A stretch of DNA of 64,000 nt. Origin: the human T2T-CHM13v2.0 reference genome, Homo sapiens. Both the position numbers and the translations under genes were made by a program. How positions within the stretch are numbered: position 1 is the stretch's first letter; each line of letters starts with the position of its first letter. Positions 1 through 4,535 of the stretch are shown here, one piece after another. The notes beneath the pieces were generated by a model. The model was given only the letters and a program-made list of their open reading frames with translations, was not told where the DNA came from and did no database searches. The stretch lies in the NCBI RefSeq assembly GCF_009914755.1, contig NC_060929.1; one strand, written 5' to 3'.

Positions 1-506
1 TCTAGAGCCAGGGATGGCTCTCTCCCTCCTCTATGCTCAGCCCTCACCCTGACCATCATTCTACAGGGATACTCTGCAAGGTGCAGGCTAATGTGAACTA
101 TGAATGTCCACTGAGAAAGTCACATTTTAAAATTGTAAATTTAACTGATATACTCCTCCTCCCAATAGGACAGATAACATGTTACTAAGGTTCTGAGTGT
201 CATCTAACTTTGTTTCTCTTCTGCCTCAAGAAATCTAACAAGTAGTTTTGGTATTAATATCTGCGTTGGAGTACTTCCTTATATCTTACTTTGGACGTAA
301 GTTTTAGAACCTAAAACTAGGAGTCATTGAGTGAGTGCTATAATGACCGAATATTTGTTTCAAAGTGCATTGCGTTGCTTCTTTCCTGTGATCCTTGACG
401 ATAGGATTTGAAACCCAACATCTATCTACTCATTCTGATTCAGAGGCTCAAGGGCATTAAGTAATAGATATCCAACATAAGAGACCCACAACAATGGTCC
501 TATAGT

Positions 507-512
507 TTTATT
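507..512 (-). terminator. Candidate polyadenylation signal (AATAAA) of the TGF-beta-like gene
   Basis: TTTATT on + strand; first AATAAA I found downstream of the minus-strand stop at 1229 (~720-nt 3'UTR). Confidence 0.35.
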
Positions 513-1228
513 AAAGATAGTGAAAAAGCTAATATCAAGTTCCTTAAATGATAGTGAGACAAACTTTCCATGAGGCCAGAGGCCCCCTCTGTCAGTCAAG
601 CAACATCCTCTACTCTCAGGCTCCCATCTGACACCAGGTTGTGAAGGCCTTGGGGCCCTTTACCCATGACTAGCCCATGACAGAATGCTTTCTTCCACAG
701 AGTCTTCACTCCCTCTAAAGAGGCCAGGAGTGTTAGGTGAGGAGGAATGTACATGCTGAGGTCAGTTCTGGACCAGCCCCAGGCCAATGGTACAGAGAAG
801 GATGATAGCAGCTGAATGGCTCAGAAAGAGTCCAAAGCCAGCTTAACACTGGTAACAATTTTACCCCTACCCCAAGAGCTGACATGCGTCCAATTCCAGT
901 TCCTCTTTCCCCACCTAAATGATCCCAGAGGTGGCACTAAGCCCAGCCCACTCACAATCTAGGACAGCGATAGTCAGACATCTCAATGGGCCCAGCTTCC
1001 CAGTAGTAGGAGTGACTGAGAACAGCACTAGGGGGCCCCTGCCACATCAAAGAGAAGCATCTATGAGGGGTTACTGCCATAATGCCAACCTTCTTGCTGT
1101 GCTTTGAGAAACAAACCAAATCCCACCTCCCTTCAAAGAGCTCTACTTGCTATGAAAAGTAATCCCACCCCCTACTAAAGTCCTGAGACTTAGGTGGCCC
1201 TGAGGCCAGTAGGAGGCTTTGGGGTATC

Positions 1229-1375
1229 TCAAGAGCAGCCACACTTCTCCACCAAGGAAGTGTTCACATAGTGCACACTCATCTTGTGTTCGTCATCCTG
1301 GACCATCAGGGAGAAGAGTCTGACCATGGTGGGACGGCAGGTCTGGAAGAGCCAGGGACAGGTAGGTACTGCCCT
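1229..1375 (-). CDS. TGF-beta-superfamily-like gene, last coding exon (RAVPTCPWLFQTCRPT...SLVEKCGCS*)
   Basis: Acceptor ttgtttctgcag|AGG, phase 0; ends in the family-typical C-x-P-x29-C-G-C-x-stop with the same C5-C6 spacing (31 aa) as BMP2. Confidence 0.85.
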   Translation of the reverse strand, partial: RAVPTCPWLFQTCRPTMVRLFSLMVQDDEHKMSVHYVNTSLVEKCGCS

Positions 1376-1727
1376 CTGCAGAAACAAATGGCAGAATGGT
1401 GAGTGCCTCATAGCCACAGCCTCATATCTAAGGGCATCAGTAGACTTGTCAGGGATACATGGGAAGGGAGAAGGAGGGCCTGGGGAGAAGCTGCTGGATC
1501 AGGGCTGTTTCAGAACAATCTTTAGGAAGCTGATGTTTCTTATGAATAAAGATAAGGGATAAGGTCACAGGGCGGGGAAGATGCTACACACTGCATCAGT
1601 GCTAGATTACATAATTACCAACTTCAATGGCTTCCTTGACTCAAAAGGAGCCAGGCCTAGAGAGTTGAGCACTTAGTGCTATCCCAATATGACCCCAGAA
1701 GAGAAAGAACGAGGCTCCATGTCTTAC

Positions 1728-2392
1728 CTTATAGCACTCAAAGCTGGAATGACGGAGCTCACTGTTGAGGGCCGGGCAGGTCCCCTGACAGTAAGAGAAG
1801 CTGAGAGTCTTGGGTGCAACAATACACTCGCCCCAGGCAGCTCTGTGAAGGTTCACCTTGCGATCCTGCAGATGGCAGAGCTTCTCTGCTGGAAAGATAT
1901 CCTGGCCATGGCCTATCTCCCGGCGATTCTGGCCCGGGATCCCCAGGATCAGCTGCTCCACATTAGAGATTAAGGGTTTCTGGACATAAGGCAGGTGAAA
2001 CAGAGGTGGCTGTGTGTGGGACAAGGTCACGAACAGCAACACTACGTCTTGTTTCCTTTCGGTACTGGAACATTCATTCAGGCTGGCATCAGCGACATCA
2101 GTGGCTGGAATCTTTGTCTCTGCCAAGAGGGTGGGCACCACCTCCATCCAATACGTGAGTAAACAGTAGATATCCAATAATGACCCTCCCTCTGACTGGT
2201 AGGATGAAAAGATAATGGGGAAAGATCCCAGAAGGAATCTTTGGAGGCCCCTTCTATGGTCCTCGAACTCTAGAACAAGCTCAGTGGCATGGGGGACAAT
2301 GGGCACCCAAGCCCATAACTTTATCAAGGAAACCCCCAAGAAGGAAACTGCCTCAAAACAGAGAAGCCAGTAGCTGTGTAGGAACTATGAGC
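1728..2392 (-). CDS. TGF-beta-superfamily-like gene, middle exon (prodomain plus N-terminal half of cystine knot); 5' boundary ambiguous (2392, 2384 or 2373)
   Basis: Open frame 2384-1728; prodomain-like LDIYCLLTYW (cf. BMP2 FDVTPAVMRW); dibasic NRR; C-x28-C-x-G-x-C with W..xIVAP in BMP register; donor AAG|GTAAGA phase 0 in frame with last exon. Confidence 0.8.
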
Positions 2393-2995
2393 CTGTAGGG
2401 AAAGAAGAGTGGAAGCTCCAGGAGGCCACTATCGTGGAAAGTCCCACCTCCCTTTCAGCTTCTTACTCCCCACTACCCAGCCGGGCAGGACAGGACAAAG
2501 ACTTAGCAGTCTCAGCTTGTCAAAGTCAGTGCTTAGTCCACAGCAGCCAGGGATGGACTGAGGTTCCTCAACTCCCATCACCCTACCCCTGGAATTAAGT
2601 CAGAATGATTGCCCTAGTACTGAAAATCATTCCAGTCACCATGACCTAAGACAAGCCACTTGCCCTGTTTATCTCCCAAAACACTATAGTTGCCCAGCCC
2701 AGCAGCTGTGTACTTCACACTTTAGAGCATCCTTACACACAGAACTTTAGGGCATCAGCCATAAAGCTTAAAGACATCCTACATACCAAGCCTGCAGAGC
2801 TGAAACCAGGAAGCAGATTCCATTTCTGCTAGACCAGCTGAAGAATATTCTGTACCCAACTCCTTGCTCTACTCACAAGAGCCCTTAATATCTGTTGTCA
2901 TTTACACCCCATTCCCTGACCAGCCCCACAAAATGCTGCCAGGCAGCTTCTGGATCACTCCTTCCCTGGCAAAGACCAGCGCTCCAGCTACTTAC

Positions 2996-3180
2996 TTTTG
3001 AATATGAGGGTAAAACCATGTTGCCTGGCAGAAAAAAATCTCATTTATGTGGGAAGGCAGCATCGGGTTGGGACAGTCAAACGTCTCTACTGAGCTCAAA
3101 CACATGCACCAAAGACCCAGAGCCAAGAGCCCAGGAATGAGCCAGGAGCTGCCACTTCTCCCACAGCCACCCTCCAACAT
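2996..3180 (-). CDS. TGF-beta-superfamily-like gene, probable first coding exon (signal peptide)
   Basis: ATG at 3180, hydrophobic WLIPGLLALGLWCMCLSS stretch, consensus donor AA|GTAAGT at 2996/2995. Confidence 0.6.
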
Positions 3181-3216
3181 ACCTGCTCTCAGAAGCGGGG
3201 CTTCCCCTTCGCTGTC

Positions 3217-3232
3217 TTTAAATATCCACGTG
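3217..3232 (-). promoter_or_regulatory. Putative core promoter: E-box CACGTG followed by TATA-like TATTTAAA
   Basis: CACGTG 3227-3232 and TATTTAAA 3224-3217, about 40 bp upstream of ATG 3180. Confidence 0.45.
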
Positions 3233-3569
3233 CCCAGCTGTAGGCCCTATTCTAACCCCCCACAGCTTGTAGCTGATCACGCATTCAAGAGAAATTAAAT
3301 TCAAGTGAGAGAAACTCTCACTCCCAGAACAACTTCAATACCAACTCCTGTTTACAGAATGGAGGTGCAAGAAGTGATAATACAGATTGTGTTTCTCAAA
3401 TGCAACCTCGAAAACACAAGTACATAATTAGTGAATAGATGCACTTATGTGGAAGACACGCTCTGACAGACTGTGTTGGTCCAAATGCTGGAAACAAGGA
3501 CAAGTATGCACAGTTTGCAAGTTACAAACACTCCATTTAACTCACCTTTGTGTTCTTAGACTTTAGCTA

Positions 3570-3732: not shown

Positions 3733-4242
3733 TCATCCACATTACTTATGCCATAACTAGTACATAGAAGATGCCCAATAAGTGTATTTTGATTCATTGA
3801 TAATACACTATACTTAGTGTGTTTGTGGTTCTGAAATTTTTTTAAACAGAAACAAACAAACAAAAAAAACTCCTTCAGGTTAAAAGGATGAAATTCACTA
3901 AATCTGAAAATACCAGATTCTTATGTGGGAAGTACCCAACATAAGAAAAGTAGCATTTGGGATTCATGCTCCCAACATTCTTTTGTTTTCTTTTCGGAGA
4001 GTACAAATCAAGATCTTCAAAAAATAACATATACGAGAAGCCAATATAGTCTTCTTCATGTTTCCTAACACTTAACAAATTATTATGAGCATATTATATA
4101 TAAATATAGTGTAGGAATAATCTGTCCATTAAACATACAGAGTAAGGCATCCTTCATTAACAAATTAACCTGCATTTCACAATATTTGCTTTTCTTAAAA
4201 GACCAAATCACATTGACACGTACAATAAAAGTTTAGTTTCTC

Positions 4243-4535
<293 letters not shown>

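What the first reader, a model, noticed from the sequence alone, without database searches (positions are those of the whole stretch)
2373..2996. Gene or pseudogene depends on three competing acceptors in three phases
Seen: the exon-1 donor (AA|GTAAGT) is phase 2. The strongest acceptor (ctcttctttccctacag|G, 2392) is phase 1 relative to exon 2, so it frameshifts; the exon-2 frame also has a TAG at 2387-2385. That TAG could itself act as a phase-0 acceptor (2384). A third AG (cctacacag|C, 2373) is phase 2 and restores an uninterrupted ORF (…PHIQ-N-YWLLCFE…). A T7 run in exon 1 (3032-3038) is an obvious slippage site. Inference: either a recently disabled gene (frameshift plus nonsense) or one rescued by a downstream acceptor; it could be polymorphic.
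Basis: partly seen in the sequence, partly recalled or inferred. Interest (0 to 1): 0.8.

Follow-up and report, generated by a model that had tools for sequence, protein, structure and literature searches.

The report
Dead human Nodal-like growth-factor gene
This is the broken human copy of a little-known Nodal-like growth-factor gene that is still intact in rabbits, voles and monkeys, and the apparent puzzle of three competing splice sites comes from a one-base insertion plus a premature stop codon.

Summary
The puzzle itself comes from reading exon 1 in a frame that is already shifted.

The minus strand carries a three-exon TGF-beta-family gene (Pfam TGF_beta split over exons 2 and 3). Intact orthologue models exist in rabbit (330 aa), vole, mole and a monkey.

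- **Frameshift:** all 4 models that cover the end of exon 1 read it in the other frame. The human T7 run is therefore a +1 insertion.
- **Nonsense codon:** all 7 models that cover the human TAG codon have Gln there.
- **Authentic acceptor:** in the original frame the donor is phase 1, which fits the strong acceptor at 2392.
- **Independent proof:** a full-length processed retrocopy on contig C10 of the same genome joins 2996 directly to 2392. It has six bases where chr5 has T7.

The frame-restoring AG at 2373 is weak, forms part of conserved His-Ser codons, and would replace a conserved segment. A site that close arises in 6.4% of shuffles.

Verdict: a disabled gene in this assembly, ordinary in mechanism. 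The parent gene family is uncharacterised and Nodal-like, which is mildly interesting.

The parts
3217..3224 (-). TATTTAAA, a TATA-like box about 31 nt upstream of the 5' end recorded by the retrocopy
   Evidence: Read. The retrocopy's 5' end aligns to about window 3193. Promoter function is inferred, not tested.
2996..3193 (-). Ancestral exon 1. It holds a short 5' UTR, the start codon at 3180-3178, a hydrophobic signal-peptide-like stretch and the start of the prodomain. RefSeq's exon 1 covers only 2996-3098.
   Evidence: aligns with the N-termini of rabbit P0006 and vole P0008; the retrocopy covers 3168-2995 clearly and about 3193 by eye. The signal-peptide call rests on inspection only.
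3032..3038 (-). T7 run. One T too many compared with all relatives, giving a +1 frameshift in exon 1.
   Evidence: the frame from 3032 reads SARQHGFTLIFK; 4 of 4 orthologue models that cover it read this frame; the retrocopy has six bases (TCTTTT) here.
2990..2995 (-). Exon 1 donor gtaagt. Phase 1 in the ancestral frame and phase 2 in the shifted human frame.
2393..2995 (-). Intron 1 (603 nt), absent from the retrocopy.
   Evidence: window 2995-3168 and 1739-2392 abut at L006 7246; the alignment runs across the join.
2392..2394 (-). Authentic acceptor: AG at 2394-2393, first exon base 2392.
   Evidence: 15 of 16 pyrimidines at -20..-5, 10.6 bits, 99.8th percentile of 418 AGs; the retrocopy junction is 2996|2392; the orthologue models read K-S-S/A-Q across it.
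2385..2387 (-). TAG nonsense codon, the third codon of exon 2 and codon 64 of the ancestral frame. It replaces a conserved Gln.
   Evidence: Gln in 7 of 7 orthologue models that cover the column. The retrocopy also has TAG here, which is unexplained.
2373..2375 (-). The downstream AG (2375-2374, first exon base 2373) that would restore the frame. It is part of the His-Ser codons caC AGc.
   Evidence: -0.9 bits, 81.6th percentile, and a 325-aa open frame if used; chance control. There is no evidence that it is used.
1728..2392 (-). Ancestral exon 2 (665 nt), holding the prodomain and the first half of the TGF-beta domain. It is open apart from the TAG.
   Evidence: Pfam TGF_beta at residues 170-212, E 5.3e-08; orthologues.
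1979..1981 (-). Acceptor used by the curated RefSeq lncRNA (first exon base 1979). It is out of frame with both exon 1 frames.
   Evidence: Hub gene table; 4.7 bits, with stops after 64 or 66 aa.
1376..1727 (-). Intron 2 (352 nt), phase 0, inside the mature domain (ECYK|RAVP). It lies at the position of NODAL intron 2.
   Evidence: It is absent from the retrocopy.
1229..1375 (-). Coding part of exon 3, the second half of the TGF-beta domain, ending ...EKCGCS and a stop at 1231-1229.
   Evidence: Pfam TGF_beta profile positions 68-104, E 1.6e-04..
493..1228 (-). Ancestral 3' UTR, with AATAAA at 512-507. The retrocopy's homology ends at about 493. RefSeq's exon 3 runs on past the window start.

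Best explanation
The locus is the disabled human copy (in this assembly) of a three-exon, secreted Nodal-type TGF-beta-family gene of placental mammals. The authentic mRNA ran from about 3193 to 2996, from 2392 to 1728, and from 1375 to about 493. Two lesions break the reading frame. One extra T in the run at 3038-3032 shifts the frame for the last 12 codons of exon 1. A Gln codon three codons into exon 2 has become TAG (2387-2385). The donor looks like phase 2 only because the shifted frame is being read. In the original frame it is phase 1 and matches the strong acceptor at 2392. The two further AGs are ordinary dinucleotides inside coding sequence, not competing splice sites kept by selection. 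Shown here: the two lesions, the ancestral junction and the family assignment. Inferred: that no protein is made today, that the gene was lost in the hominoid or human lineage, and that loss of constraint came late relative to the birth of the retrocopy.
For: (1) Family: Pfam TGF_beta is split over exon 2 (E 5.3e-08, 34 bits against a cut-off of 27) and exon 3 (E 1.6e-04). Full-length orthologue models score 46.5-51.4 bits. (2) Orthologues: 23 protein clusters match at E <= 0.001, including rabbit 330 aa, vole 320 aa and Cercocebus 292 aa. A human read-through with X at the two breaks aligns collinearly with them. (3) Frameshift: the other frame from 3032 reads SARQHGFTLIFK. This matches 4 of 4 models that cover the end of exon 1. 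(4) Nonsense: Gln is present in 7 of 7 models at the TAG column. (5) With one T left out and acceptor 2392, the join is 996 nt (mod 3 = 0) and the only stop is that TAG. (6) The processed retrocopy on C10 lacks both introns and joins 2996 directly to 2392. It has six bases at the T run, a decayed A-rich tail 14 nt after the parent's AATAAA, and an 11-nt flanking duplication matching at 10 of 11 positions. (7) 2392 is the best acceptor by a crude matrix, at 10.6 bits against 1.0 (2384) and -0.9 (2373). (8) Parent against retrocopy gives dN/dS 0.58 (bootstrap 0.39-0.86, 324 codons). This is below 1, so the parent lineage was constrained for much of the time since the copy was made. (9) The genome holds no other copy.
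Against: Present-day human splicing was not seen. The only transcript information is the hub table, whose one curated transcript uses acceptor 1979 and starts at 3098, so neither 2392 nor 2373 is documented in human RNA. The orthologue proteins are automatic gene models, not sequenced proteins. The Cercocebus model starts at an internal Met and lacks the signal peptide, so it may not be intact either. Human and Cercocebus are only 91.1% identical (265 of 291), which is low for such close species. The gene may therefore have been drifting in catarrhines for longer than 'recent' implies. The split of 13 human-side against 8 monkey-side changes is too small to show faster human change, and no formal test was run. 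The retrocopy carries the same TAG. If that TAG were inherited from the parent mRNA, the nonsense codon would be far older than I infer. Only one haplotype was examined.
Confidence: 0.85

Rival explanations
1. The human gene is still coding. Splicing from 2996 to the downstream acceptor 2373 skips the TAG and, being 19 nt shorter, compensates for the extra T. The product would be a 325-aa secreted TGF-beta-like protein.
For:: as-is exon 1 plus 2373 gives 978 nt and an uninterrupted 325-aa frame with the start codon, the hydrophobic N-terminus and the whole TGF-beta domain. Apart from the two lesions the human exons are clean, with all four splice sites canonical and the stop codon in the orthologous place. 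A frame-restoring AG this close arises in only 6.4% of shuffles.
Against: 2373 scores -0.9 bits against 10.6 for 2392 and lies downstream of it. Its AG is a by-product of the conserved His-Ser codons. The product would replace 19 residues conserved across the orthologue models (SARQHGFT..KSSQFLHS; platypus has a related GFTITPKS stretch) with 13 unrelated ones. The curated transcript uses 1979 and starts downstream of the ATG (hub table). The 6.4% figure was chosen after the fact, and 11 of the 50 AGs in the exon restore the frame.
Confidence: 0.04
2. The lesions are polymorphic. Some human haplotypes carry T6 and CAG, and so an intact gene.
For: Mononucleotide runs mutate often (general knowledge). 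Only one haplotype, this assembly, was read. Apart from the two lesions the frame is intact.
Against: An intact allele needs both lesions absent on the same haplotype. The human protein model in the database (P0009, 188 aa, named XP_016865616.1) starts at an internal Met of exon 2. This suggests the reference it was built on also lacks a full-length frame, though that is an inference. No population data were available.
Confidence: 0.05
3. The locus has been taken over as a functional long non-coding RNA, and that role, not coding decay, now shapes it. This reading overlaps the main one and does not exclude it.
For: RefSeq curates it as a lncRNA with a different start (3098), a different exon 2 acceptor (1979) and a much longer 3' end (hub table). 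The ancestral mRNA recorded by the retrocopy ran from about 3193 to about 493.
Against: No evidence for any RNA function was found here. Transcribed pseudogenes are common. One paper names the locus, and only as the gene nearest to a GWAS signal.
Confidence: 0.06

Closest known systems
NODAL (human locus on contig C10 at 71.30 Mb of the same genome)
   Same: Three coding exons with a phase-0 intron inside the mature domain at the matching place. NODAL has ...EFHPTNHAYIQ|SLLK, 17 residues after CxGxC. This gene has ...ECYK|RAVP, 16 residues after (rabbit EFHQPNLECHK|R). Mature domains are 34% identical to a Nodal-like protein. There is a weak prodomain match at the FLLGS...LL.YW motif (E 0.028), and a stronger chain through the unnamed relative P0035. 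NCBI's automatic names for the orthologues are 'nodal homolog 2-A', 'nodal-like' and 'nodal homolog'.
   Different: Very divergent: the branch to the placental family measures 1.7 changes per column. No RxxR cleavage motif occurs before the mature domain in 0 of 12 placental sequences. There is a single Cys where NODAL has CC, and a Cys replaces the second Trp of the WxxW motif (WGECIVAP). The gene lies on another chromosome, next to MAP3K1.
GDF3 (the name RefSeq gives the human locus)
   Same: Lacks the interchain cysteine, having xCxP instead of CCxP. GDF3-like proteins are among the best-scoring non-family hits of the profile (about 52 bits).
   Different: The GDF3 mature domain lies in one exon, with two coding pieces in all. 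Similarity is confined to the mature domain at 29%. In the tree the family does not join the GDF3 locus. GDF3-like P0041 has an RKRR site.
Vertebrate 'Nodal-related' lineage (Opazo et al., bioRxiv 10.1101/483974; passages read)
   Same: A second Nodal-type gene beside NODAL. Monotreme proteins named 'nodal homolog 2-A-like' are the nearest named relatives outside placentals.
   Different: That paper states that Nodal-related is absent from all mammals examined, and places it between EIF4EBP1 and ASH2L/STAR. This gene lies beside MAP3K1. Orthology to that lineage was not tested here.
Processed pseudogenes as fossils of ancestral mRNAs
   Same: The C10 copy has all the hallmarks: no introns, a poly(A) remnant, a flanking duplication and many disabling changes.
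   Different: Nothing unusual, except that it carries the same TAG codon as the parent.

Membership tests
TGF-beta superfamily ligand | TGF_beta cystine-knot domain (Pfam PF00019) at the C-terminus | tested here: met
   human exon 2 scores 34 bits against a cut-off of 27, and exon 3 scores 22.8 bits for the second half; rabbit, vole and monkey models score 46.5-51.4 bits over profile positions 2-104.
TGF-beta superfamily ligand | Six knot cysteines (C...CxGxC...CxP...CxC) | tested here: met
   CxGxC and C-terminal CxCx are present in the human frame and in 10 of 12 placental sequences. Phodopus and Plecturocebus lose the C-terminal CxC.
TGF-beta superfamily ligand | Dibasic RxxR furin-type site between prodomain and mature domain | tested here: not met
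   RxxR occurs in the 45 residues before the first knot Cys in 0 of 12 placental sequences (human has QNRR only). It is present in P0035 (RVKR), Nodal-like P0043 and GDF3-like P0041.
TGF-beta superfamily ligand | Recognisable TGFb_propeptide domain (the Pfam accession is recalled, not from a call) | tested here: not met
   no Pfam family other than TGF_beta for three full-length models at E <= 1.
TGF-beta superfamily ligand | Interchain cysteine (first C of CCxP) | tested here: not met
   T/A/I/V precedes the knot Cys in all placental members. That this also holds for GDF3, GDF9, BMP15 and Lefty is recalled.
Nodal subfamily | Three-exon gene with a phase-0 intron in the mature domain at the NODAL position | tested here: met
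   both introns are phase 0 and lie 17 and 16 residues after CxGxC. The positions coincide if the rabbit EFH is aligned with the NODAL EFH.
Nodal subfamily | Groups with Nodal genes in a phylogeny | tested here: inconclusive
   23 mature domains, 113 columns. The family joins the monotreme 'nodal homolog 2-A-like' proteins (95/89). It sits beside P0035 and the Nodal-like rows, but branches are long and the tool warns of long-branch joins. No rooted test was done.
Nodal subfamily | Signals through activin receptors with an EGF-CFC co-receptor | not testable with these tools
   Needs cell assays with an intact orthologue.
GDF3 | Orthology or close kinship to the GDF3 locus (two exons, mature domain unsplit) | tested here: not met
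   the GDF3 locus matches in two pieces with the mature domain unbroken; 29% identity, mature domain only; the two are separate in the tree.
Unitary pseudogene | Frame-disrupting lesions at a locus whose orthologues are intact elsewhere, with no intact copy in the same genome | tested here: met
   (two lesions). (full-length models in rabbit and vole). (the only other copy is the broken retrocopy). Whether the orthologues lie at the matching chromosomal position was not tested, because the protein databases give no positions.
Processed pseudogene (C10 copy) | Intronless copy of the mRNA with a poly(A) remnant and a target-site duplication | tested here: met
   three in-frame stops and several indels.

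The most novel reading that the evidence does not exclude
Placental mammals carry a second, extremely divergent Nodal-type ligand gene beside MAP3K1. It has no furin site, no interchain cysteine and an odd WGEC motif. It is still open in rabbit, voles, moles, treeshrew, aardvark and an Old World monkey, but dead in humans, and it did not appear for mouse or rat in these searches. This would contradict the published statement that mammals have a single Nodal-family gene (bioRxiv 10.1101/483974). The gene could be the 'missing' mammalian Nodal-related gene or a further ancient paralogue. Its absence from the two main model genomes would explain why it has never been studied.
Probability: 0.4. 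Interest if true: 0.6.

Novelty: new member of a known kind. Interest (0 to 1): 0.38.

Why it matters
For the finding as written, the result is a clarification. There is no regulated choice among three acceptors. There is an ordinary dead gene whose frame was misread because of a one-base insertion. A processed retrocopy elsewhere in the same genome settles which splice junction the living gene used.

The wider point is modest but real. RefSeq labels the locus a lncRNA named after GDF3, and four searches found no paper that describes the gene. By gene structure it is Nodal-like, and it appears intact in several mammals. If it is functional there, the usual count of one Nodal-family ligand in mammals would need revising. 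Rabbit or vole embryos would then be the place to look for its role. The locus also lies in the MAP3K1 breast-cancer GWAS region, where it is used as a 'nearest gene' label. Knowing that it is a pseudogene helps in reading such tables.

Tried and rejected
- **Structure:** AlphaFold2 on the 12-row orthologue alignment gave mean pLDDT 35.7 and pTM 0.30, with no residue at 70 or above. The model is unusable, so no fold search was run.
- **Branch point:** a yUnAy pattern search in the 68 nt before the 2394 AG found no match, so I make no branch-point argument.
- **Gene conversion as the source of the shared TAG:** the identical run around the TAG is 24 nt (2387-2364), which ranks 7th of 190 runs. 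The flanking human-specific changes are not shared with the retrocopy. There is no sign of conversion, but a very short tract is not excluded. The last print statement of that script failed (sliding windows) and was not repeated.
- **Relative rate, human against Cercocebus:** 13 against 8 polarised changes, with 5 unpolarised. The counts are too few to conclude anything.
- **Named-database profile search:** it returned the same family only, 25 clusters, and only 8000 candidates were scored.
- **Literature:** LOC105378979 gave one GWAS paper. NR_172721 gave none. Orthologue accessions and 'nodal homolog 2-A' gave none. nodal + MAP3K1 + synteny + paralog gave one irrelevant paper. nodal + three exons + intron gave nothing useful.
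- **The chr5 sequence beyond the window start (L007):** it matches the retrocopy region only in Alu-like repeats, so the long RefSeq 3' exon was not part of the ancestral mRNA.
- **Rejected outright:** a chance ORF. Pfam, the orthologues and the retrocopy all exclude it.
Full report
**What is in the sequence.**
On the minus strand of window 1-3400 lies a three-exon gene remnant.
- Exon 1 has a start codon at 3180-3178 and ends CAAAA|gtaagt at 2996.
- A near-ideal acceptor (cttccactcttctttccctacag|G) opens a 665-nt exon at 2392. That exon ends TAAG|gtaaga at 1728.
- A third exon starts at 1375 and reaches a stop at 1231-1229.

The arithmetic is right too. Only the join to 2373 keeps the as-is frame open, giving 978 nt and 325 aa.

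**What the gene is.**
Pfam finds a TGF_beta domain split across exon 2 (E 5.3e-08) and exon 3 (E 1.6e-04). A search of the large protein collection returned 23 clusters at E <= 0.001. They include:
- full-length models from rabbit (330 aa, 'nodal homolog 2-A') and a vole (320 aa, 'nodal-like');
- a 292-aa model from the monkey Cercocebus atys;
- partial models from moles, treeshrew, marmot, gerbil, deer mouse, hamster, aardvark and a titi monkey;
- a 188-aa human model that starts at an internal Met of exon 2.

No mouse or rat entry appeared. That means only 'not seen', because clusters show one name each.

**The puzzle resolved.**
- The four orthologue models that include the end of exon 1 read ...NEIF-(S/V)(A/S/V)RQ(H/R)GFT...KS and then S/A-Q-FLH(S/G)YWLL.
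- Human exon 1 gives exactly this, SARQHGFTLIFK, if read from 3032 in the other frame.
- The human T7 run therefore carries one base too many. In the original frame the donor is phase 1, the split codon is A|GC (Ser), and the partner is 2392.
- With one T left out, exon 1 + 2392 + exon 3 is 996 nt. The only stop is the TAG at codon 64.
- At that column, 7 of 7 orthologue models that cover it have Gln.
- A human read-through with X at these two places aligns end to end with rabbit and vole, without further breaks.

**Independent proof from the same genome.**
Searching the window's own assembly with exon 3 and exon 2 found one further copy, on contig C10 near 97.71 Mb.
- Window 2995-3168, 1739-2392 and 571-1377 match consecutive stretches of that locus at 85.1%, 84.4% and 82.3% identity. 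Both introns are missing, and the first two blocks abut at one base.
- The alignment shows ...CCAAAAGCTCCTAG... across the 2996|2392 join, and GAGATCTTTTCTGCC where chr5 has GAGATTTTTTTCTGC.
- The copy starts at about window 3193, 31 nt after a TATTTAAA box (3224-3217).
- It ends at about window 493, 14 nt after the parent's AATAAA (512-507), and is followed by a 22-nt A-rich stretch.
- It is flanked by an 11-nt repeat matching at 10 of 11 positions.

It is therefore a full-length processed pseudogene, a fossil of the ancestral mRNA. It shows that the mRNA used acceptor 2392 and had a six-base run.

The sequence beyond the window start, which RefSeq includes in its long last exon, matches the copy only in Alu-like repeats.

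**Strength of the rival acceptors.**
I scored the sites with a crude log-odds matrix whose frequencies I recalled from the classical 3' splice-site compilations, so it is approximate.

| First exon base | Score (bits) | Percentile of 418 minus-strand AGs |
|---|---|---|
| 2392 | 10.6 | 99.8 |
| 1375 (exon 3) | 7.0 | 99.0 |
| 1979 (RefSeq) | 4.7 | 96.9 |
| 2384 | 1.0 | 90.9 |
| 2373 | -0.9 | 81.6 |

- The AG at 2375-2374 belongs to the His-Ser codons of the conserved FLHSYW motif.
- 11 of the 50 AGs in exon 2 would restore the frame.
- One as close as 2373 arises in 6.4% of shuffles.
- Use of 2373 would replace 19 conserved residues with 13 unrelated ones.

I therefore treat the 'rescue' as a coincidence, not excluded but unsupported.

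**What happens in humans today.**
I could not see RNA data. The hub table's single curated transcript starts at 3098, downstream of the ancestral ATG. It splices 2996 to 1979 and runs far past the ancestral poly(A) site. 1979 is out of frame with either exon 1 frame, giving stops after 64 or 66 aa. This fits a transcribed pseudogene.

**Timing (inference).**
- Parent against retrocopy gives dN/dS 0.58 (bootstrap 0.39-0.86, 324 codons). If the retrocopy drifted neutrally, the parent lineage averaged roughly 0.16, meaning it was constrained for most of that time.
- Jukes-Cantor distances are 0.15-0.16 in coding parts and 0.18 in the 3' UTR. By recalled primate divergences, the retrocopy is much older than the human-macaque split.
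- Human and Cercocebus differ at 26 of 291 sites. Of these, 13 are derived on the human side, 8 on the monkey side and 5 unpolarised.
- That is high for such close species, and suggests relaxed constraint in catarrhines generally.
- The Cercocebus model lacks the signal peptide.
- The titi monkey model runs into unrelated sequence at its C-terminus.
- The gene may therefore be decaying in several primate lines. I cannot date the human lesions without ape genomes.

**An unexplained detail.**
The retrocopy has TAG at the same codon as the parent, although all seven orthologue models have Gln there.
- The identical run around it is only 24 nt, which ranks 7th of 190 runs.
- The neighbouring human-specific changes are not shared with the retrocopy.
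- The site is not a CpG.

My best guess is a parallel C-to-T change. I put the chance at roughly one in twenty, an estimate from recalled substitution rates that was not computed in any call. A very short conversion tract, or an older TAG, is not excluded.

**Family placement.**
- Against solved structures, the rabbit protein is nearest to inhibin beta B (8.1e-08), a Nodal/BMP2 chimera (1.6e-07) and activin A.
- A profile search of 1.84 billion representatives gave 127 hits at E <= 0.001. Only 16 were below 1e-10.
- The next hits after the family are platypus and echidna 'nodal homolog 2-A-like' proteins (29% identity over 296 residues including the prodomain, E 5e-35).
- An unnamed protein, P0035, also matches (32%, E 2e-41). 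It keeps an RVKR site and in turn matches a Nodal-like protein over both prodomain and mature domain (33%, E 1e-32).
- GDF3-like proteins match the mature domain only (29%).
- Human NODAL has a phase-0 intron at ...AYIQ|SLLK, 17 residues after CxGxC. This gene has one at ...ECYK|RAVP, 16 residues after.
- The GDF3 mature domain is unsplit.
- A tree of 23 mature domains joins the family to the monotreme proteins (95/89) and keeps it apart from GDF3. Branches are very long and the tool warns of long-branch joins.

I conclude that the gene works like, and is probably related to, Nodal rather than GDF3. Membership of the Nodal clade is not proven.

The family is also odd. RxxR is found in 0 of 12 placental sequences, there is no interchain cysteine, and WGEC replaces WxxW.

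**Literature.**
- One paper names the locus, as the gene nearest a breast-cancer signal (passage read).
- The preprint on Nodal-gene evolution states that mammals have one Nodal gene and lack Nodal-related. It does not mention MAP3K1 or monotremes (passages read). Its supplements were not seen and might list mammalian sequences.
- Searches for the transcript accession and for orthologue identifiers found nothing.

**Verdict.**
The mechanism is ordinary. The parent gene family is uncharacterised, and that is the more interesting lead.

Noticed in passing
L006 7426-5416 (G000 contig C10, about 97,706,915-97,708,925, minus strand): A full-length processed retrocopy of this gene. Both introns are missing, and it has an A-rich tail, an 11-nt flanking repeat (10 of 11), an Alu-like insertion in its 3' UTR, three in-frame stops and several indels. 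It records the ancestral transcript's ends and splice junctions.
   Followed up: yes
window 2385-2387 and the matching codon in L006 (about 7239-7237): The parent and the retrocopy both carry TAG at a codon where 7 of 7 orthologue models have Gln. No gene-conversion tract is visible (the identical run is 24 nt, rank 7 of 190) and the site is not a CpG. A parallel mutation is the default reading, but the coincidence is unexplained.
   Followed up: partly
window 3098, 1979 and beyond the window start (hub table) against about 3193, 2392 and about 493: The curated RefSeq lncRNA differs from the ancestral mRNA at all three landmarks. Its start lies downstream of the old ATG, its acceptor lies 413 nt inside the old exon 2, and its 3' end lies several kb past the old AATAAA site.
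   Followed up: partly
orthologue proteins P0005-P0024: The whole placental family lacks an RxxR processing site (0 of 12) and the interchain cysteine. It has a conserved Cys in place of the second Trp of WxxW (WGECIVAP). The last 30 residues are strongly conserved. Such a ligand would have to be secreted or activated in an unusual way.
   Followed up: partly
P0024 (Plecturocebus), P0022 (Phodopus), P0014 (Talpa isoform X2), P0005 (Cercocebus): Several orthologue models look damaged or mis-built. The titi monkey C-terminus runs into repeat-like sequence. The hamster model loses the final CGCS. The mole isoform skips half the mature domain. The monkey model starts at an internal Met without a signal peptide. 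This may mean independent decay in several lineages, or annotation artefacts.
   Followed up: no
P0036 and P0149 (platypus, echidna), P0035 (unnamed): Monotremes have a 'nodal homolog 2-A-like' protein that shares this family's prodomain motifs. An unnamed relative keeps an RVKR site and bridges to Nodal. The published account that mammals lack a second Nodal-type gene does not mention monotremes.
   Followed up: partly
PMC7057957, Table 3: LOC105378979 is listed as the gene nearest to the breast-cancer indel rs112776581 at 5q11.2. The position is given in an older assembly, and I did not map it to the window.
   Followed up: no
window about 4234-4510: An Alu-like repeat that matches about ten copies in the 9.5-kb C10 locus at 72-84% identity. 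This is ordinary.
   Followed up: no
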